Positions 29,146-50,521 of a stretch of 64,000 nucleotides of DNA are shown here, one piece after another. The stretch's first letter is position 1. Each line of letters starts with the position of its first letter. The notes below the pieces were generated by a model. That model was not told the origin of the DNA. It saw only the letters and a program-made list of their open reading frames with translations, and searched no databases. The stretch is from NCBI GenBank assembly GCA_009692155.1, contig SHZW01000009.1, forward strand, positions 12,272-76,271. Reading direction: 5' to 3'. A program made the position numbers and the translations under genes. Source of the DNA: Nitrospiraceae bacterium. GTDB taxonomy: Bacteria > Nitrospirota > Nitrospiria > Nitrospirales > Nitrospiraceae.

Positions 29146-30648
29146 ATGTCTGCTGCGTCTTCTCTCAAAATTCTGTTTGTCTCCCCGGAAGCCGTCCCCT
29201 ATGCGAAAACCGGCGGTCTCGCGGATGTCGCCGGCGCCCTGCCGCGCGAGCTGGCTCGATTGGGCCATGAGGTCCGGCTGGTCCTCCCGCGCTATGGCAC
29301 GATCGACAGCGCAGCGCATGGGTTGAAGGAGTGGGGCCGGCTTGCGGTGCCGACGGCAGCCGGGGTCGTCAGCGCGGTGGTGGAAGAGGGGTGCCTGCCG
29401 GGCTCCGATGTCCAGGTGTTCACCATCGGGCACGACCCGTTCTTTGCCCGTCAGGGGCTCTATGGAGAGGTAGGAGCCGATTATCCCGACAACCTCGAGA
29501 GGTTCGCGTTTTTTTGCCGCGCGGCCATGGAGCTGCTGCTGGCGTTTGCCAAAGTGTCTCGGTGGACGCCCGACGTGCTGCACGCGCACGATTGGCAGGC
29601 GGCGCTGAGCGTCGTCTATCTCAAGTCGCTCTATGCGCAGCGTCCGGAGTTCAAGAAGCTGGGATCGCTTCTGACGGTGCACAATCTGGGCTATCAAGGG
29701 CTCTTCCCGGCGACCGCTTTTTCGAAGACCGGTTTGGGGCCTGAGTTCTTTACGCCGAAGTCGCTGGAATTCTTTGGCCAGGCGAATCTGTTGAAGGGAG
29801 GGCTGGTCTTTGCCGACCTCCTGACGACCGTCAGTCCCACGTACAGCCGCGAGATTCAAACGCCCGAGCTCGGGTTCGGCCTCGATGGGGTGCTGGGCGA
29901 GCGGCGGGATCGGTTGAGCGGCGTCGTGAACGGGATTGACGTGGAGGTGTGGAATCCAGAAACCGATCCCCATCTATCGGCGTATTATTCCGCGTCGGAC
30001 CTTGCCGGCAAGCGGCGCTGCAAGGAAGCCTTGCAGCGGGAACTCACGCTGCCGGTGCGCGATGTGCCGCTGCTTGCCGTGATCTCGCGGTTTACCTCGC
30101 AGAAGGGGCTGGATCTGGTGGCGGCGGTGCTGCCGGAGCTGATGCGGCTGGATGTGCAAGTCGCGCTGCTCGGTACGGGCGATCCGCCGCTGGAGCTGCA
30201 ATTTCAGTCGTTCCGCATGCGCTATCCGGACAAGATCGGACTGCGCATCGGGTTCGACGATGCGCTGGCGCATGCCATCGAAGCGGGAGCGGATGTGTTC
30301 CTCATGCCGTCACGGTACGAGCCCTGCGGGCTGAGCCAGCTGTATAGTTTGCGTTACGGCACCGTGCCGATCGTGCGGAAAACCGGCGGTCTGGCGGATA
30401 CGGTGGTGGCCTATACACCACGGACGGCCGCTGACGGCCAGGCAACGGGGTTCGCGTTCAATGAAGCCACGCCCGATGCGCTGCTGACCACGATCCTGCT
30501 GGCGTTGCGCGTGTATGCGGATCGAGCCGAATGGACAGGCCTGATGCAGGCGGGAATGGCGACGGATGTTTCCTGGGTGAAGTCAGCGGAAGCCTATGTG
30601 ACGCTGTATCAGCGTGCACGGGAGAAGCCCAAGCGGTTTACTGGTTAA
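29146..30648 (+). CDS. glgA: glycogen synthase (ADP-glucose type)
   Basis: KILFVSPEAVPYAKTGGLADV N-terminal motif and PSRYEPCGLSQL C-terminal motif. Confidence 0.92.
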   Translation: MSAASSLKILFVSPEAVPYAKTGGLADVAGALPRELARLGHEVRLVLPRYGTIDSAAHGLKEWGRLAVPTAAGVVSAVVEEGCLPGSDVQVFTIGHDPFFARQGLYGEVGADYPDNLERFAFFCRAAMELLLAFAKVSRWTPDVLHAHDWQAALSVVYLKSLYAQRPEFKKLGSLLTVHNLGYQGLFPATAFSKTGLGPEFFTPKSLEFFGQANLLKGGLVFADLLTTVSPTYSREIQTPELGFGLDGVLGERRDRLSGVVNGIDVEVWNPETDPHLSAYYSASDLAGKRRCKEALQRELTLPVRDVPLLAVISRFTSQKGLDLVAAVLPELMRLDVQVALLGTGDPPLELQFQSFRMRYPDKIGLRIGFDDALAHAIEAGADVFLMPSRYEPCGLSQLYSLRYGTVPIVRKTGGLADTVVAYTPRTAADGQATGFAFNEATPDALLTTILLALRVYADRAEWTGLMQAGMATDVSWVKSAEAYVTLYQRAREKPKRFTG

Positions 30649-31226
30649 TCTTCGGAAGAAACCGGAGCGCTGTTCCAGGGAGCAGGAGAGGCAGAGGAAA
30701 CCGAGATCAACACCGGGGTCGCGTCGGTGAGGTATCCCGCGAATTGGATTGCGCGTTCCACCTGATCCAGGCCGATCCTGGCTTGATCCACGTAGTAGGC
30801 ATAGTCCGGTTGAGAGTGGTGTTGGAGCACGGCCCGGAACATCTCTGTCGCTATATCCATCCGTTCGACACGTAAGGCGGCTTGTCCAGCGGAGAGGGCG
30901 CAGGCCGCCGCCATCGCTTTCGGATCGGCTGCCAGCCGTGAAGCGGGCTTTGCCATCACGCGTTTCACAAAGTCCGGCAGGGCGAAGGGAAGATCGCGTA
31001 CTGATTCCTGGGCCGACGCCATACGGGACAGCTGTTTCATATCGGCACGCATCGTATCCACATCCGTGCCGGCATGGCAGTGGCGGTAGGCATCCCACAC
31101 AGTCATAAACCCCGCGTTATCCAGTGGTGCCGCCGTATTGACAGGCAGTACGCTCTGGCACCCGCTCAGCAGCATCACGAGCCCTATCGTCAGCACCGCG
31201 TTTTTTATGTTCGGAAGCGTTTTCAT
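30645..31226 (-). CDS. lipoprotein (hypothetical)
   Basis: MKTLPNIKNAVLTIGLVMLLSGC lipobox. An AT-rich putative promoter region lies upstream at 31260..31330. Confidence 0.5.
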   Translation of the reverse strand: MKTLPNIKNAVLTIGLVMLLSGCQSVLPVNTAAPLDNAGFMTVWDAYRHCHAGTDVDTMRADMKQLSRMASAQESVRDLPFALPDFVKRVMAKPASRLAADPKAMAAACALSAGQAALRVERMDIATEMFRAVLQHHSQPDYAYYVDQARIGLDQVERAIQFAGYLTDATPVLISVSSASPAPWNSAPVSSED

Positions 31227-31374
31227 ATTCTGCATAGTATTTAGCAATACCAGTGCCATATACAAGTACTTGAAATTATTAATGTATTTGTATTTTTGAA
31301 TATAAAGATCTGTAGTAAAACACCTCCTGGATGTGTGATTTCAGCCACGAAGAAAGATGGAGGAAGTTGTGTGA

Positions 31375-31465: not shown

Positions 31466-32506
31466 CTATCTTGAGCGGGGCTGCAGCGTTTCGGCCTCAT
31501 ATTGAGAGAAGAGACGTTTGGATTCCTGGTGCAGGGAGGCATGGCCGTGAGGGATGCCGACAGATCGAAACAACGGGGCGAGCTTGCCAGAGGGATGCAG
31601 ATAGCCGGCTCGCAGCGGTACGGTCCGGCGGTTGTGCCGGACCAAATGGCAGGGAGTCGGCCTGATGCTGGTGAGCCAGGCGGCGATATCCTGAGGATTG
31701 CCGATCGACGCGGACAGCAGCAGCAGGCGGGCCTGGGTCGGGCAGAAAATGATGGTTTCCTCCCAGACCACGCCACGCTCCGGATCGGCGAGGTATTGCG
31801 ATTCATCCATAATCACCAATCCAAGGGTATCCAGCCGCACGTCAATTTCACCGCCCGCCGCATCGTACAGCAGGTTTCTGAGGATCTCGGTCGTCATGAT
31901 CAAGAGCGGCGCGTGCGTGTTATCCCGGCGGTCTCCGGTCAGGATGCCCACACGGTCCGCGCCGAATAGTTTCGAGAATTCGGTAAATTTGGTATTCGAA
32001 AGGGCTTTCAGCGGGGATGTATAGATGACGGTGCGCTCGGCGTCGATTGCCCGCCTGGTGGCCTCGACCGCCACGTACGTTTTGCCGCTGCCGGTCGGGA
32101 CACTGACGATGACGTCCGTTTCGGCCAGATGCGCCAACGCTTCCTCCTGCCATGGGTCCGGCACGAACGGGCTGGGTTCCGGGACTCCGATGCCTTCCAG
32201 GAAAGCCTTGAGGTCGGTCGCCGGCTCGGCCGGCTCCGGTTTGCCGGAAACAGACTGACGACGGGGGCTGGCCGGCTCCGTTCTCGGCTGCGCCTGTGGC
32301 CGGATCTGCTGCTGGTCGCCGTCCTTCATCAACGCGAGGAGGTCCGATTCCAGCCCTGCTCGGTTTGTGGCCGTGCTGCGCAGCAGCGCCTCGATAAGCC
32401 GGCGCTTGCCCAGGCGGAAATGCCGGGGGATGCGGCCGCGCCCCAGCTGGTGCAGCAGGGACACAGGCTGCACCGCGAGTAATTTTTCAAGTTCGTCGGT
32501 TGTCAT
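31466..32506 (-). CDS. Ski2/HelY-like SF2 helicase, RecA1 (N-terminal) half only
   Basis: Q motif PDPWQEEA, motif I VPTGSGKT, Ia YTSPLKALSN, Ib GILTGD, II VIMDESQY (DExQ variant) and III LSASIGN. It ends after RRTVPLRAGYL. A ~110 aa N-terminal extension is present. Confidence 0.85.
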   Translation of the reverse strand: MTTDELEKLLAVQPVSLLHQLGRGRIPRHFRLGKRRLIEALLRSTATNRAGLESDLLALMKDGDQQQIRPQAQPRTEPASPRRQSVSGKPEPAEPATDLKAFLEGIGVPEPSPFVPDPWQEEALAHLAETDVIVSVPTGSGKTYVAVEATRRAIDAERTVIYTSPLKALSNTKFTEFSKLFGADRVGILTGDRRDNTHAPLLIMTTEILRNLLYDAAGGEIDVRLDTLGLVIMDESQYLADPERGVVWEETIIFCPTQARLLLLSASIGNPQDIAAWLTSIRPTPCHLVRHNRRTVPLRAGYLHPSGKLAPLFRSVGIPHGHASLHQESKRLFSQYEAETLQPRSR

Positions 32507-32514
32507 GAATAGCT

Positions 32515-32616
32515 CACAAGTCTATCAAGTCGAAAAGTCTCTCAAGTCATAAAGTCGCCGGAAGCTCGCCTCTTTGATTTGAGACTTTACGACTTTCGAC
32601 TTTATGACTTTCGGAC
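32515..32616. repeat. AAGTC-octamer hairpin element (copy 3)
   Basis: cacaagtctatcaagtcgaaaagtctctcaagtcataaagtc ... gagactttacgactttcgactttatgactttcggac. It fills the spacer between the two helicase halves. Confidence 0.9.
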
Positions 32617-32619
32617 GCC

Positions 32620-34476
32620 TCACGGTAGTTCTTCCAGGACGCCCCGTCGCAGATTCTTGATCGCCTTGTCGGCGGTATCAGCCAGTCCGCGGTGGGTTCC
32701 CTTGAGCGTGTGGAGTTGCGACAGGTATTCCAGCGTCCTGGCCAGCAGCCGGTAGATGTCGCCCTCCGCCATGGTGGTCGTCCGGCAGAGACCGAGCCAC
32801 GTCAGGTTCGGATCGCTCACCCACCGCTCCGTCAGTGCGGCCACGTCGGCACGCAAGAGCGGAGGATCTTCGTGCGGCGCCAGGGACTCCGCCAGCCGCC
32901 GGACCTGCCACATGACCGTGGACAGACCGGGGCTCATGCGAGGGAATGAACCGGGGCGGTCGTTATCGTGCGAGATGCTCGACATGATCGCCGCCAGGAC
33001 ATGGGGTTCCACGCCCGTGAAGGCTTCGGCTCGGATTAATTCGGTGATCAGCAGCGAATGGTCCATGCGGATCAGCCGGGCCCATTCGCCATCCGCCGTC
33101 AGTTGGCAGGTGGGCGTGAGATAACCGAATTGCTGGAGAACATCCGTGCGGGATTGGAACCGGTGCCAGAGGCCGGTGCGCAGGGCGTGAATCATTTTCT
33201 GATGCCGCTGGACGTCCTGCCTGAGCTTCAACGCCGTGGCGTGGTCCTTCTGGCAGGCCGGCCGTGACGAGCAGGTGGGGCAGGGGAAGTCGTCGGTGAG
33301 CGTCAGGGCCACTTCCCGTTCCTCTGGTTCCGGCTGCACGAGGATGGGCAGCACGGGGAGGCGAACAGGCAGCTCCGACAGATGGCCGGTCAGTTCATCC
33401 AGACTGTGCGGGGCACACCAGGGATAGGCAGGCGCTTCCTGCACGTCGAACATCCGGTCGAAGACTTGCGTCACCGTCGAGGCCGGGCATTCGGTGACGG
33501 CGCCGGCTTCCCGTACGACTGTCACCATCGGACTCTTTTGTCCGCGGCTCCGGTACTGCCGGAGCACGATGCCGCGGCCTCTCGTTAAGCCGACGACGCG
33601 GCCCGGCGTCAAAAAATGCAGCCGCGAGGTCAACTCGGGCGGTTCCTGGCGCTTGGGGTGCACACGCTGCGATTTTCTTTTGCGGGCCTGCTCGAAGGAC
33701 TGCCATTGCGTGATCCAGTCCGTGCAGACGCGGGGGCCGTAGGGTTCCATCTGGACGTGCAGTGTGTCCAGCTTGCTCTCCAGCGTTTCGGCCCGCCGGT
33801 TGAGCTGGAACTGCGCAAAGCTTCTGGCCAGGATGGATTGAATCTGGCCCAACGGATGGGCTTTCAACAAGTTGAGTGCCATCGAATAGCTGATTGAAAA
33901 CTGGCTGTCGATCGGTTCGGGCTGTCCCGTCAGGCCCTTGGTGATGACGCCGAGGTCGATGTAGGGCGAGGGGGTGACGACCGCGAAACCGACGAGATCC
34001 TTGCCCCGGCGGCCCGCCCGCCCGGCCAGTTGCTGCACCTCGCTGTTCGTGAGATCGGTGAAGTCTCTCGTCTTGCGCACGCTCGATTGCGTGATCACGA
34101 CCGTGCGGGCGGGGAAGTCCACGCCTGCAGCCAGCGTCGTGGTGGCGAAGACCGCGTCGAGAAGCCCCTGCCGCATCAGTTCTTCAATGGCGATCTTCCA
34201 TGACGGCAAATGGCCAGCGTGGTGTGCGGCGACGCCGATGCGCTCCACGATGGGCACGAGCGGGTGCTCCGCGATGCTGGGGTATTGCGTGGCCAGTTCC
34301 TGGAGCGTCGCGGCAATGTTCCGCCGGCGCGCCGGCGGAAGCGCGACCTGGTCGCGCTCGAATGCCTGCATCGCGTCGTCGCAGGCCCGGCGGGAGGTCA
34401 GAAAGACAATTGCGGGGGTGAGGTTATGCTGGCGGAGCGCCGCGATGAGGTCAACCGGATGGATTGATGGCGGCAT
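32620..34476 (-). CDS. Ski2/HelY-like SF2 helicase, RecA2 plus C-terminal (DSHCT-like) half only
   Basis: Motif IV PAIVFLTSRRACDDA, then GVAAHHAGHLPSWK, motif V FATTTLAAGVDFPART and motif VI QLAGRAGRRGKD. The C-terminal MAEGDIYRLLARTLEYLSQL is DSHCT-like. It has no motif I-III. Confidence 0.85.
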   Translation of the reverse strand: MPPSIHPVDLIAALRQHNLTPAIVFLTSRRACDDAMQAFERDQVALPPARRRNIAATLQELATQYPSIAEHPLVPIVERIGVAAHHAGHLPSWKIAIEELMRQGLLDAVFATTTLAAGVDFPARTVVITQSSVRKTRDFTDLTNSEVQQLAGRAGRRGKDLVGFAVVTPSPYIDLGVITKGLTGQPEPIDSQFSISYSMALNLLKAHPLGQIQSILARSFAQFQLNRRAETLESKLDTLHVQMEPYGPRVCTDWITQWQSFEQARKRKSQRVHPKRQEPPELTSRLHFLTPGRVVGLTRGRGIVLRQYRSRGQKSPMVTVVREAGAVTECPASTVTQVFDRMFDVQEAPAYPWCAPHSLDELTGHLSELPVRLPVLPILVQPEPEEREVALTLTDDFPCPTCSSRPACQKDHATALKLRQDVQRHQKMIHALRTGLWHRFQSRTDVLQQFGYLTPTCQLTADGEWARLIRMDHSLLITELIRAEAFTGVEPHVLAAIMSSISHDNDRPGSFPRMSPGLSTVMWQVRRLAESLAPHEDPPLLRADVAALTERWVSDPNLTWLGLCRTTTMAEGDIYRLLARTLEYLSQLHTLKGTHRGLADTADKAIKNLRRGVLEELP

Positions 34477-35689
34477 CCAGTTTCATTCCCTTGTAAATAA
34501 CCACGAGGCCCGAGTCGGTCACGTGGAACCGTTTACGGTCCAAGTCGAGATCGTAGCCGATGTCGGTCTTGTCGGGGATCACGACGTCCTTGTCGATGAT
34601 GGCGCGGCGGATTTTGCACCGCTCGCCGATCCGTACGCGTTCCATGACGACGGATTCCCGGACCTCGCTGTAGTCCCGCACGATCACGTCCGGCGACAGG
34701 ACTGAGTTCTGAACCCGTGCGCCTGAAATGATGCAGCCGCCGCAGACGATCGAGTCCAGCGCAACGCCCATCCGGCCGCCCTCGTAATCCTGGGCGAACA
34801 CGAATTTCGCGGGTGGAAACTGGCCCTGGGCGGTGCGCAGCGGCCACTCCTCGTCGTACAGGTTGAACAGCGGGTCCACCGCCACCAAGTCCATGTTGGC
34901 TTCCCAATAGGCGTCCAGGGTGCCGATATCGCGCCAGTACTTCACGGCTTTTTTGTTTTTGTCATGGAACTTTAACGCGTAGACGCGGCCCTGCTGGATC
35001 ATTTTTGGGATGATGTTTTTGCCGAAATCGTGTGCGCTGTCCTGCGGGGCATCCTCCGCCAGGTGCTGGCGGAGCACGTCGGTTTTAAACAAGTAGATGC
35101 CCATGGAGACGAGGGCCTGGCTGGGATCGCCGGGCATCGGGAAGGGGTGCGCTGGTTTTTCCTCCCACTGATTGATGCGAAAGTCGTCGTCCACGCCGAT
35201 CACGCCGAAGCGGGTGGCTTCCGAAATCGGAAATTCGAGGACGCCGACGACCGCGTCCGCCTGTTTCTCGACCAGGAAGTCGTACATTTCGGCATAGTTC
35301 ATCTTATAGATGTGGTCGCCGGCAAGAATCAGGAGGTACTCGGCCCGCTCGTTGTCGATCAGGAACATGTTCTGGTGGACCGCGTCGGCGGTACCCCGGT
35401 ACCAGTCTTCGCTGATCCGCTGCTGGGGCGGAATGGAGGCGACGAATTCGTCGACCTCCGGGCTCAGGATGCTCCAGGCCGTCCGGATGTGGCGGTCCAG
35501 CGAGTAGGACTTGTACTGGATCAGGACGGCGATTTTCCGGATGCCGGAATTGAAACAGTTGCTGAGCGTGGAATCAATGATGCGATATTTTCCTCCGAAG
35601 CGGACCGCGGGCTTGGCACGGTGCAGGGTCAACGGGTGCAACCGCTCGCCCTTACCGCCTGCCAGCACCATGGCGAGGATGTTTTTCAT
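34451..35689 (-). CDS. glgC: glucose-1-phosphate adenylyltransferase
   Basis: LAMVLAGGKGERLHPLTLHRAKPAVRFGGKYRIID, followed by a C-terminal beta-helix. Confidence 0.93.
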   Translation of the reverse strand: MKNILAMVLAGGKGERLHPLTLHRAKPAVRFGGKYRIIDSTLSNCFNSGIRKIAVLIQYKSYSLDRHIRTAWSILSPEVDEFVASIPPQQRISEDWYRGTADAVHQNMFLIDNERAEYLLILAGDHIYKMNYAEMYDFLVEKQADAVVGVLEFPISEATRFGVIGVDDDFRINQWEEKPAHPFPMPGDPSQALVSMGIYLFKTDVLRQHLAEDAPQDSAHDFGKNIIPKMIQQGRVYALKFHDKNKKAVKYWRDIGTLDAYWEANMDLVAVDPLFNLYDEEWPLRTAQGQFPPAKFVFAQDYEGGRMGVALDSIVCGGCIISGARVQNSVLSPDVIVRDYSEVRESVVMERVRIGERCKIRRAIIDKDVVIPDKTDIGYDLDLDRKRFHVTDSGLVVIYKGMKLDAAINPSG

Positions 35690-35797: not shown

Positions 35798-36094
35798 ATG
35801 GCTAAGAAACCCACCATCGGAAAACCGGGACGCGTGGTGCGTCTTCCGCCACGCCAGCAACCGGCGAGCGTCGCGCAGGACATCATCTGGCGGCTTGATC
35901 GCCTAGAACGGCAGGTGCACACCCTGTCCGAACTGGTGCGCGAGCACGCAGAAGACGCCGATCGACTGGTTCGTATTGTCGCCGAGGATCGGGATGTCCT
36001 GCGGCTGGAACTGCTGCGCCAGCATCAGGCCAGAGTCCGCTTGCGGAAGCGTTCACGCGAACACGAAGCGAGTATCGGGCTGACGAGTTTGTGA
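35798..36094 (+). CDS. small coiled-coil hypothetical protein
   Basis: 98 aa ORF whose stop overlaps the potA GTG (GTGA). I recognised no motif. Confidence 0.35.
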   Translation: MAKKPTIGKPGRVVRLPPRQQPASVAQDIIWRLDRLERQVHTLSELVREHAEDADRLVRIVAEDRDVLRLELLRQHQARVRLRKRSREHEASIGLTSL

Positions 36095-50353: not shown

Positions 50354-50521
50354 GTCCGAAAGTCGTCAAGTCTGAAAGTCATAAAGTCTTGGCTTAGTCA
50401 TCAAGTTCTAAGGTCGTAAAGTCTTCAGGTCGACTTGACGTTATGACTTTACAGACTTTCTGACTTGATAGACATGCCTTCTCGGTAGACTTTACGACTT
50501 GATGACTTTGGACTTTCAGAC
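50354..50521. repeat. AAGTC-octamer hairpin element (copy 4, longest)
   Basis: gtccgaaagtcgtcaagtctgaaagtcataaagtc...gtaaagtcttcaggtc | gacttgacgttatgactttacagactttctgacttgat...gactttacgacttgatgactttggactttcagac. The centre is at gtcgac (about 50430). Confidence 0.9.

What the first reader, a model, noticed from the sequence alone, without database searches (positions are those of the whole stretch)
31466..34476. Ski2/HelY-like helicase split at the RecA1/RecA2 boundary, with the C-terminal half encoded upstream of the N-terminal half
**Seen in sequence.**
- The ORF 34476->32620 has only helicase motifs IV, V and VI (PAIVFLTSRRACDDA, TTTLAAGVDFPART, QLAGRAGRRGKD) plus a DSHCT-like tail.
- The next ORF downstream on the same strand, 32506->31466, has only the Q motif and motifs I, Ia, Ib, II and III (PTGSGKT, YTSPLKALSN, DESQ, SAS). 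It stops right after the RRTVPL segment that normally leads into RecA2.
- Both ORFs are intact. A 113-nt spacer filled by an AAGTC hairpin separates them.
- The upstream ORF overlaps the glgC stop by 26 nt.

**Established knowledge.** In Ski2-like, HelY and Hel308 enzymes the two RecA domains are one polypeptide in the order RecA1-RecA2.

**Inference.** This is a two-subunit, gene-order-permuted helicase, produced by fission plus rearrangement or by decay of a tandem duplication.

Two further oddities: motif II is DESQ rather than DExH, and the N-half carries an extra ~110 aa helical/basic N-terminal domain. The pair is wedged between glgC and glgA.
Basis: partly seen in the sequence, partly recalled or inferred. 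Interest (0 to 1): 0.6.

Follow-up and report, generated by a model that had tools for sequence, protein, structure and literature searches.

The report
Split, gene-swapped Ski2/HelY RNA helicase
Nitrospira-group bacteria encode a Ski2/HelY-type RNA helicase as two separate, strongly conserved proteins whose genes lie back-half-first; it is a real natural split enzyme that this scan has met before in other Nitrospira genomes, and I found no paper describing it.

Summary
On the minus strand, helC (34476->32620, 618 aa) encodes RecA2, a winged helix, an arch-like insert and DSHCT. It lies upstream of helN (32506->31466, 346 aa), which encodes RecA1.

- **Not a misassembly.** In 81 sampled genomes of the order (Nitrospirales), all 75 genomes of three families that hold both halves have helC directly upstream of helN. 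This includes many one-contig genomes.
- **Fourth family.** The halves are unlinked there, yet both are kept. Two genomes lack both halves. None has a fused or N->C form.
- **Selection.** Both halves are under purifying selection (dN/dS 0.06-0.09) with all ATPase motifs intact.
- **Same origin.** Both halves hit Mtr4/Ski2 best and give congruent trees.
- **Clade-specific changes.** Motif II is DESQ/DEAQ, motif III is SAS, and the Q motif reads WQ.
- **Independent parallel.** Pyrinomonadaceae (Acidobacteriota) cut the same helicase in the same loop but in normal N->C order. Pyrinomonas keeps it fused.
- **Spacer.** The hairpin is a genome-wide dispersed repeat, not part of the system.

The most likely reading is an obligate heterodimeric 3'->5' RNA helicase. 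Assembly and activity are untested. The scan flagged the same arrangement earlier in other Nitrospira genomes. I found no literature on it.

The parts
32620..34476 (-). helC: the C-terminal 'half' of a HelY/Mtr4-type helicase (618 aa). It holds RecA2 with motifs IV, V and VI, a winged helix, an arch-like insert and DSHCT.
   Evidence: ORF. Pfam Helicase_C plus DSHCT. Best PDB sequence hit is Mtr4 328-608, E 1.8e-35. AF2 model pLDDT 81.5. Foldseek to Mtr4: E 3e-30, TMq up to 0.70. Within-genus dN/dS 0.06-0.09.
33967..34458 (-). RecA2 lobe of helC (aa 7-170). It starts at the helix that precedes the motif IV strand.
   Evidence: Secondary structure of the AF2 model. Motifs IV, V and VI, including the GRAGRRG arginines, are conserved in all relatives.
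33130..33819 (-). Arch-like insert of helC (aa 220-449). It has long stalk helices, a five-stranded beta-barrel (aa 293-342, KOW-like) and a CPxC...C cysteine cluster (aa about 399-410).
   Evidence: AF2 secondary structure. Foldseek fits arch-bearing Mtr4 better (TMq 0.63-0.70) than arch-less constructs (0.54-0.58). Cysteine cluster alignment. Mtr4 arch architecture from PMC3384339 and PMC4731217.
32635..33105 (-). DSHCT / helical-bundle (ratchet) domain of helC (aa 458-614).
   Evidence: Pfam PF08148, E 6.2e-24, profile positions 3-170 of 172. pLDDT is mostly 85-97.
32507..32619 (-). 113-nt spacer filled by an octamer-array (AAAGTCNT) palindromic hairpin. This is a dispersed REP-like element, not a conserved part of the helicase pair.
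   Evidence: Fold -39.4 kcal/mol, z -3.07. 133 genome copies of the core against 4 in the control. Junction spacers are non-homologous, or absent with a 4-nt overlap, in relatives.
31466..32506 (-). helN: the N-terminal 'half' (346 aa). It holds a new helical module, a linker, RecA1 with motifs Q, I, Ia, Ib, II and III, and a tail.
   Evidence: ORF. Pfam DEAD, E 4.5e-22. Best PDB sequence hit is Mtr4 69-258, E 1.7e-40. AF2 pLDDT 78.3. Foldseek to Mtr4, E 9e-17. dN/dS 0.07-0.09.
32312..32500 (-). Lineage-specific 4-helix N-terminal module of helN (aa 3-65). It is followed by a disordered P/R/Q-rich linker (aa 66-91, 32234-32311).
   Evidence: AF2 helices 3-11, 15-22, 34-44 and 49-65 with pLDDT about 80-85; the linker is below 50. 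Present in families f1-f3; absent in f4, Pyrinomonadaceae and fused relatives. dN/dS is 0.055-0.084 for the module and 0.3-0.56 for the linker. No Pfam, PDB or internal homology.
31637..32212 (-). RecA1 lobe of helN (aa 99-290), with motif II DESQ at 31796-31807.
   Evidence: AF2. Motif alignment. Translation of 31796-31807 gives DESQ.
31469..31630 (-). helN tail (aa 293-346): RRTVPL, a beta-hairpin and a helix. In fused relatives this segment is continuous with RecA2. It is proposed to dock onto helC.
   Evidence: Translation. AF2 strands 301-303 and 309-311, helix 327-340. Alignment to fused relatives. dN/dS 0.03-0.07. The docking role is inferred.
34451..35689 (-). glgC (ADP-glucose pyrophosphorylase). 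Its last 26 nt overlap the helC start. It is probably the first gene of a glgC-helC-helN transcription unit in this family only.
   Evidence: ORF. glgC-helC-helN synteny in family f1, but not in f2-f4. No terminator-like or promoter-like site on the minus strand between glgC and helN.

Best explanation
An ancestral single-chain HelY/Mtr4-type (Ski2-like) helicase was cut in a variable surface loop early in RecA2. In this order of bacteria it is now encoded as two genes in swapped order.

**The two genes**
- helC comes first: RecA2, winged helix, arch-like insert and DSHCT.
- helN comes second: a new helical module, RecA1 and a short tail.

**Proposed mechanism**
- In most of the order the two genes are made from one mRNA.
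  - In many genomes a 4-nt stop/start overlap (ATGA/GTGA) suggests translational coupling.
  - In this genome a repeat hairpin was inserted between the genes.
- The two proteins reassemble non-covalently. The ATP site forms between RecA1 (Walker A and B, on helN) and the motif VI arginines of RecA2 (on helC).
- The conserved helN tail probably completes or clamps RecA2.
- The heterodimer then acts like HelY/Mtr4, as an ATP-driven 3'->5' RNA helicase in RNA processing or decay.

**Shown**
- The split, the swapped order and its order-wide conservation.
- Purifying selection on both halves and intact motifs.
- Common ancestry of the halves, and an independent parallel split in another phylum.

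**Inferred**
- Heterodimer formation, tail docking, translational coupling, substrate and polarity.
For: **Structure of the locus**
- ORFs and domains.
- Both halves hit Mtr4/Ski2 best, over complementary parts of the protein.

**Conservation**
- Both halves were found in all 41 relatives searched.
- In an 81-genome sample of the order, 75 of 75 f1-f3 genomes with both halves show helC directly upstream of helN on the same strand.
- Three f4 genomes keep both halves unlinked. Two genomes lack both. No genome keeps only one.
- The single apparent exception is a contig end.
- It is the only HelY-like gene set in the genome.

**Selection and motifs**
- dN/dS is 0.06-0.09 for both halves, the same as glgC. 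The helN tail is at 0.03-0.07.
- All catalytic motifs are conserved in both halves.

**Phylogeny**
- The N-part and C-part trees are congruent.
- The nearest outgroup is a fused protein.

**The cut site is tolerated**
- Pyrinomonadaceae cut the same loop, and both halves there are under selection.
- One clade holding all split forms is rejected (AU p 1e-63).

**Coupling**
- Stop/start overlaps occur in all five f3 genomes of the first sample (G026, G029, G032, G035, G038) and in G005, G008 and G013.
Against: **No direct evidence**
- There is none for expression, interaction or activity.
- No multimer prediction was available.

**Points that weaken parts of the model**
- In family f4 the genes are unlinked and look monocistronic. 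Coupling is therefore not essential, and stoichiometry must be set otherwise there.
- Motif II His is replaced by Gln and motif III Thr by Ser in the whole clade. Coupling of ATPase to unwinding may therefore differ from DExH enzymes.
- Assigning the helN tail to RecA2 rests on predicted secondary structure and general SF2 topology, not on a complex model.
Confidence: 0.8

Rival explanations
1. The two proteins no longer work together. After fission each took its own role. For example, helC might act as an ATP-independent RNA-binding adaptor through its arch and DSHCT. helN might act with another partner through its new N-terminal module.
For: - The genes are unlinked in family f4.
- helN gained a conserved new helical module in f1-f3.
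- The clade sits on a long stem branch with changed motifs II and III.
Against: - The Walker A/B and Q motifs in helN, and the motif VI arginine fingers in helC, are strictly kept. This only makes sense if a composite ATP site exists.
- Presence is all-or-none: both halves or neither across the genomes sampled.
- No other RecA1-only or RecA2-only partner, and no fused paralogue, is present in the genome.
- dN values of the two halves are nearly equal.
Confidence: 0.1
2. The swapped order arose by tandem duplication of a full-length gene (N-C-N-C), followed by loss of the outer N and C parts. This is the classic route to circular permutation. The alternative is simple fission followed by relocation of one half.
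For: - The two genes abut with a 4-nt overlap in many genomes, as a C-N junction inside a tandem duplicate would.
- Simple fission at this loop gives N->C order in Pyrinomonadaceae. The swapped order therefore needs an extra event.
Against: - No relic of a lost N or C copy flanks the pair in any family.
- In f4 the halves are unlinked, which shows that they can move independently.
- The C-part tree places f4 basal (95 SH-aLRT). An unlinked ancestor followed by secondary C->N juxtaposition is therefore equally parsimonious.
- The internal topology is not stable between trees.
Confidence: 0.4
3. It is an artefact or a dying gene: a misassembly or inversion at the repeat-filled spacer, or a pseudogene broken by the repeat insertion.
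For: The spacer holds a dispersed palindromic repeat that could confuse assemblers. One relative's contig ends right after helC.
Against: - The same order and the same start and stop residues occur in dozens of independent assemblies, including many one-contig genomes, with or without a spacer.
- There are no internal stops, and selection is strongly purifying.
- NCBI annotates the two as separate genes in cultured Nitrospira.
Confidence: 0.01
4. The halves are rejoined into one chain after transcription or translation, by a split intein, by recoding, or by read-through that gives a circular permutant.
For: None beyond the adjacency of the genes.
Against: - No intein or other extra domain appears at the helC C-terminus or the helN N-terminus.
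- The frames differ and the spacers vary from -4 to 185 nt or more, with unrelated sequence.
- The genes are unlinked in f4.
Confidence: 0.02

Closest known systems
Bacterial HelY (Mycobacterium smegmatis/tuberculosis Ski2-like helicase). Its characterisation as an RNA-stimulated ATPase and 3'->5' helicase is recalled from memory, not from a paper read here.
   Same: - SF2 Ski2-like core plus a DSHCT C-terminal domain.
- Sources name relatives of helC 'ATP-dependent RNA helicase HelY'.
- The nearest full-length relatives are bacterial proteins of about 740-920 aa at 30-41% identity.
   Different: - HelY is one polypeptide in the order RecA1-RecA2. Here there are two genes in the order RecA2...DSHCT, then RecA1.
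- Motifs are DESQ, SAS and WQ instead of DEAH, SAT and FQ.
- helN has an extra N-terminal helical module.
Eukaryotic Mtr4 / Ski2 / FRH (exosome-linked Ski2-like DExH helicases with an arch)
   Same: - They are the best sequence and fold matches for both halves.
- helC is predicted to have stalk helices plus a beta-barrel inserted after the winged helix, like the Mtr4 arch/KOW (PMC3384339, PMC4731217).
   Different: - They are single chains that act with the exosome, TRAMP or the Ski complex, none of which exists in bacteria.
- Identity is only about 20% for helC and about 35% for helN.
- The Pfam arch model did not hit.
Split HelY-like helicase of Pyrinomonadaceae (Acidobacteriota), found here
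   Same: - The same helicase family is cut in the same variable loop ('...RRRW | MPEMPPA' against '...RSR | MPPSIHP').
- Both halves are under purifying selection.
   Different: - Gene order is the normal N->C, with spacers of 49-744 nt.
- DEAH and SAT are retained.
- The genus Pyrinomonas keeps the fused gene (904 and 923 aa).
- The fission is independent by tree and AU test.
Other naturally split SF2 enzymes, recalled from memory: Nanoarchaeum equitans split reverse gyrase, and Cas3'/Cas3''
   Same: A helicase-containing enzyme is encoded as two genes whose products must associate.
   Different: Those cuts fall between the helicase module and a second catalytic module, not inside the two-lobe motor. 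No swapped adjacent gene order is a feature of them, as far as I recall.
Suv3-type DExQ helicases
   Same: Motif II ends in Gln. Pfam DEXQc_Suv3 gives a secondary hit on helN (E 4e-8).
   Different: The hit is much weaker than DEAD or Mtr4. Suv3 is a single chain without an arch or DSHCT. The resemblance is convergent at one residue.

Membership tests
Ski2-like helicases (Mtr4/Ski2/HelY group) | RecA1 lobe with motifs Q, I, Ia, Ib, II (DExH) and III (SAT) | tested here: inconclusive
   All motifs are present and conserved in helN. Motif II is DESQ/DEAQ, motif III is SAS and the Q motif is WQ in the whole clade. Best hits are Mtr4 and Ski2 at E 1e-40.
Ski2-like helicases (Mtr4/Ski2/HelY group) | RecA2 lobe with motifs IV, V and VI (QxxGRAGRRG) | tested here: met
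   helC aa 7-170. The motifs are invariant across relatives. Mtr4 hit at E 1.8e-35.
Ski2-like helicases (Mtr4/Ski2/HelY group) | Winged helix plus helical-bundle/ratchet (DSHCT) closing a ring around the motor | tested here: met
   Pfam DSHCT, E 6.2e-24. The AF2 model aligns to Mtr4 over about 700 columns with TMq up to 0.70. Ring closure with helN itself was not modelled.
Ski2-like helicases (Mtr4/Ski2/HelY group) | Both RecA lobes on one polypeptide in the order RecA1-RecA2 | tested here: not met
   They are two ORFs with RecA2 first, separated by 113 nt here and by -4 to about 300 nt elsewhere. No fused form was found in 81 genomes of the order.
Ski2-like helicases (Mtr4/Ski2/HelY group) | RNA-stimulated ATPase and 3'->5' unwinding | not testable with these tools
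   This needs purified helN plus helC.
Hel308 (archaeal/bacterial DNA helicase, NCBIfam NF040935) | Score above the curated equivalog cut-off | tested here: not met
   63.6 and 65.5 bits against a cut-off of 1200. Only the RecA cores align.
Hachiman HamB and other defence helicases (PADLOC) | Full-length match to HamB plus a HamA neighbour or a defence-island context | tested here: not met
   Only RecA-core matches at E 1e-10 to 1e-15. The neighbours are glgC, glgA, recO and transporters. The gene pair is core to the order.

The most novel reading that the evidence does not exclude
The fission turned a constitutive motor into a conditionally assembled one.
- The order-specific 4-helix module plus flexible linker on helN is present only where helN follows helC.
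- That module would be a new docking or regulatory handle. It would decide when, or on which RNA or partner, RecA1 is delivered to the helC scaffold.
- The H->Q and T->S changes in motifs II and III would retune ATPase coupling for this two-piece mode.
- The locus would then be a natural two-component SF2 helicase, and a caught intermediate on the duplication route to circular permutation.
Probability: 0.12. Interest if true: 0.7.

Novelty: new variant of a known kind. Interest (0 to 1): 0.45.

Why it matters
SF2 helicase motors are textbook single-chain, two-lobe machines.

- **A natural split-protein experiment.** Here the motor is cut inside RecA2 and encoded back-to-front, and this has been kept for the whole history of an order. 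It shows where the motor tolerates a backbone break.
- **An independent replicate.** Pyrinomonadaceae cut the same loop, and the neighbouring genus Pyrinomonas still has the fused gene. This gives matched fused and split pairs for biochemistry.
- **Annotation.** helC is labelled 'helicase-related protein' or 'hypothetical', and helN 'DEAD/DEAH box helicase'. The presence of a HelY-type RNA helicase in nitrite-oxidising and comammox Nitrospira is therefore hidden.
- **Scale.** This is a modest curiosity, not a new kind of system.

Tried and rejected
- **Heterodimer model.** Only single-chain AF2 was on offer, and helC and helN are in different frames. Each half was folded alone.
- **Relics of a tandem duplication.** tblastn of both halves against the flanks of 20 loci found nothing below E about 1.
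- **Origin of the helN N-terminal module.**
  - No Pfam hit.
  - No PDB hit better than E 0.6.
  - No hhalign similarity to helC or to the helN core.
- **Defence-system reading.** PADLOC gave only weak RecA-core hits. Rejected.
- **Conserved third partner.** The neighbours differ between families: glgC in f1, transporters in f2 and f3, housekeeping genes in f4. Rejected.
- **Another short C-half-like protein (P0127).** No locus was found in metagenome contigs. Several other 'short' hits proved to be contig-end fragments of full-length genes.
- **Literature.** Searches on split or swapped Ski2/HelY helicases and on Nitrospira found no description.
- **Mtr4 domain boundaries.** The two papers read give the architecture only. 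Placing the cut 'inside RecA2' therefore remains an inference.
Full report
**1. The observation**

- helC runs 34476->32620 and encodes 618 aa. Pfam finds only Helicase_C and DSHCT (E 6.2e-24).
- helN runs 32506->31466 and encodes 346 aa. Pfam finds only the DEAD/ResIII-type RecA1 domain.
- The 113-nt spacer, the 26-nt overlap with the glgC stop and the quoted motifs are all present.
- The genome is a 1.93-Mb MAG in 27 contigs and about 90% complete. It holds one copy of each half and no fused paralogue.

Three details need correcting.

- helN continues 48 aa beyond RRTVPL.
- The lineage-specific N-terminal extension is about 90 aa. It is a predicted 4-helix module (aa 3-65) plus a disordered linker.
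- The spacer hairpin is one copy of a dispersed octamer-array palindrome. Its core occurs 133 times in this genome, against 4 for the reversed control.
- In relatives this junction is either a 4-nt stop/start overlap or is filled with unrelated sequence. The hairpin is therefore not part of the system.

**2. Not an artefact**

Source names of the nearest proteins place the window in Nitrospiraceae.

- In 41 relatives from four families and 23 genera of one order, both halves are present without internal stops.
- A second sample of 81 genomes of the order, drawn at 90% completeness or better, gave helN in 78 and helC in 79.
- By comparing coordinates, all 75 genomes of families f1-f3 that hold both halves have helC immediately upstream of helN on the same strand. 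These include many one-contig genomes.
- Three f4 genomes have both halves on different contigs. A fourth f4 genome, from the first sample (G033), has helC 13.6 kb from fragmentary helN matches at the end of the same contig.
- Two genomes lack both halves. None has a fused gene or an N->C pair.
- The one genome that seemed to have helC alone ends its contig 160 nt after helC.
- Outside the order, the other classes of the phylum have only remote helicase matches.

**3. One ancestral gene, both pieces functional**

- Both halves find the same best solved structures, Mtr4/Dob1, FRH and Ski2, over complementary parts.
  - helN aa 110-306 aligns to Mtr4 69-258.
  - helC aa 16-298 aligns to Mtr4 328-608.
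- The AF2 models agree (pLDDT 78 and 81.5). helC aligns to full-length Mtr4 with TMq up to 0.70.
- helC is predicted to contain five parts:
  - RecA2;
  - a winged helix;
  - two long stalk helices;
  - a five-stranded beta-barrel;
  - a DSHCT helical bundle.
- That is an Mtr4-like arch (architecture as in PMC3384339 and PMC4731217).
- Trees of the N part and the C part are congruent. The clade is monophyletic at 99 and 100 SH-aLRT, on a long stem of about 1.2 substitutions per site.
- Within-genus dN/dS is 0.07-0.09 for helN and 0.06-0.09 for helC, against 0.08 for glgC.
  - The helN tail is at 0.03-0.07 and the new helical module at 0.055-0.084.
  - Only the linker is relaxed, at 0.3-0.56.
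- All ATPase and helicase motifs are kept in both halves.
- The clade has fixed DESQ/DEAQ for DEAH, SAS for SAT and WQ for FQ. All other relatives examined, split or fused, keep the canonical forms.

**4. Where the cut is**

I aligned the joined halves with fused relatives.

- The break falls in a variable, basic loop about 45 aa after RxVPL.
- helN keeps a predicted beta-hairpin and helix after RxVPL.
- helC starts with the helix that precedes the motif IV strand.
- By general SF2 topology (my knowledge, not tested here), those strands belong to RecA2. The cut would then run through the start of RecA2, and the helN tail probably completes it.
That is not independent evidence.

**5. An independent parallel**

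- The nearest 621-aa relative of helC outside the order led to Pyrinomonadaceae in the Acidobacteriota.
- In 18 MAGs of that family the helicase is split at the same loop, but in normal N->C order. Spacers are 49-744 nt and mostly shift the frame.
- Pyrinomonas methylaliphatogenes K22 and a second Pyrinomonas genome keep a fused gene of 904 and 923 aa.
- Both halves there are also under purifying selection (dN/dS 0.06-0.19).
- The Pyrinomonadaceae split clade sits beside its fused relatives, far from the Nitrospirales clade.
- A tree that holds all split forms together is rejected (delta lnL 95, AU p 1e-63). The caveat is that I named the group after seeing the trees.
- The nearest outgroup of the Nitrospirales clade is a fused 736-aa protein.
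- Fission at this loop is therefore recurrent and tolerated. The swapped order was seen only in this order among what I searched.

**6. Context and mechanism**

- In family f1, glgC-helC-helN is conserved and the glgC end overlaps the helC start. No terminator-like or promoter-like site lies between them on the coding strand.
- In f2 and f3 the pair stands among unrelated transporter genes.
- In f4 each half sits alone among housekeeping genes, and helN lacks the N-terminal module.
- The only conserved unit is therefore the pair itself.
- Stop/start overlaps (ATGA/GTGA) occur in all five f3 genomes of the first sample and in several f1 genomes. This suggests translational coupling, with later repeat insertions such as the one in this window.
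- I conclude, at about 0.8, that helC and helN form an obligate heterodimer that rebuilds a HelY/Mtr4-type 3'->5' RNA helicase.
- How the order became swapped is open.
  - No duplicate relics were found.
  - The unlinked f4 state shows that the halves can move independently.

**7. Novelty**

- I found no paper on this arrangement.
- Public annotation treats the two genes as unrelated entries.
- The scan noted the same arrangement before in other Nitrospira genomes and followed up the octamer hairpins.
  - the unlinked state in f4;
  - the both-or-neither pattern of presence;
  - the clade-specific motif changes;
  - the independent canonical-order fission in Pyrinomonadaceae, with a fused sister genus.
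- It is a new variant of a known enzyme family and of moderate interest.

**8. Limits**

- No multimer model was possible.

Noticed in passing
window 32507-32619; other copies near window 18191, 25732, 50375-50495 and 54142: Octamer-array (AAAGTCNT) palindromic hairpins are dispersed in gene junctions. The 15-nt core occurs 133 times in the genome against 4 for the control, mostly as forward/reverse pairs 20-60 nt apart. Other Nitrospirales carry different arrays at the same helC/helN junction, such as TTTCACG heptamers in G024.
   Followed up: partly
L069-L093 (Pyrinomonadaceae contigs), e.g. L070:4869-7866 and L087:5146-7860: The HelY-like helicase is split in normal N->C order in 18 Pyrinomonadaceae MAGs but fused in Pyrinomonas methylaliphatogenes K22 and another Pyrinomonas. 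The C-half may start at an upstream ATG (MKLRMPEM...) in several of them.
   Followed up: partly
window 30645-31265 (-): A 206-aa ORF lies between helN and the convergent glgA, overlapping the glgA stop by 4 nt. It has no Pfam hit. It is conserved in the genus (68% in G005) and weakly in G018 (47%). It could be the last gene of the glgC-helC-helN unit.
   Followed up: no
window 35798-36094 (+): A 98-aa ORF lies directly upstream of a potA-like ABC ATPase gene and is divergent from glgC. It is conserved across family f1 (50-71% identity) and has no Pfam hit.
   Followed up: no
helC aa about 399-410 (window about 33247-33282): A CPxC...C cysteine cluster in the arch-like insert is conserved in Nitrospirales and in most fused relatives, but lost in the Pyrinomonadaceae clade. 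It may be a small metal site.
   Followed up: no
G189 (f1, about 2.0 Mb) and G162 (f3): These two genomes of the order, reported as 99% and 93% complete, lack both helN and helC at E 1e-25. This may be joint loss or an assembly gap.
   Followed up: no
G007:C117:624-1844 (-): A 643-aa open frame in a same-genus MAG is about 30% identical to both helN and helC cores in normal order. It is a different, fused Hel308-like helicase, or contamination.
   Followed up: no
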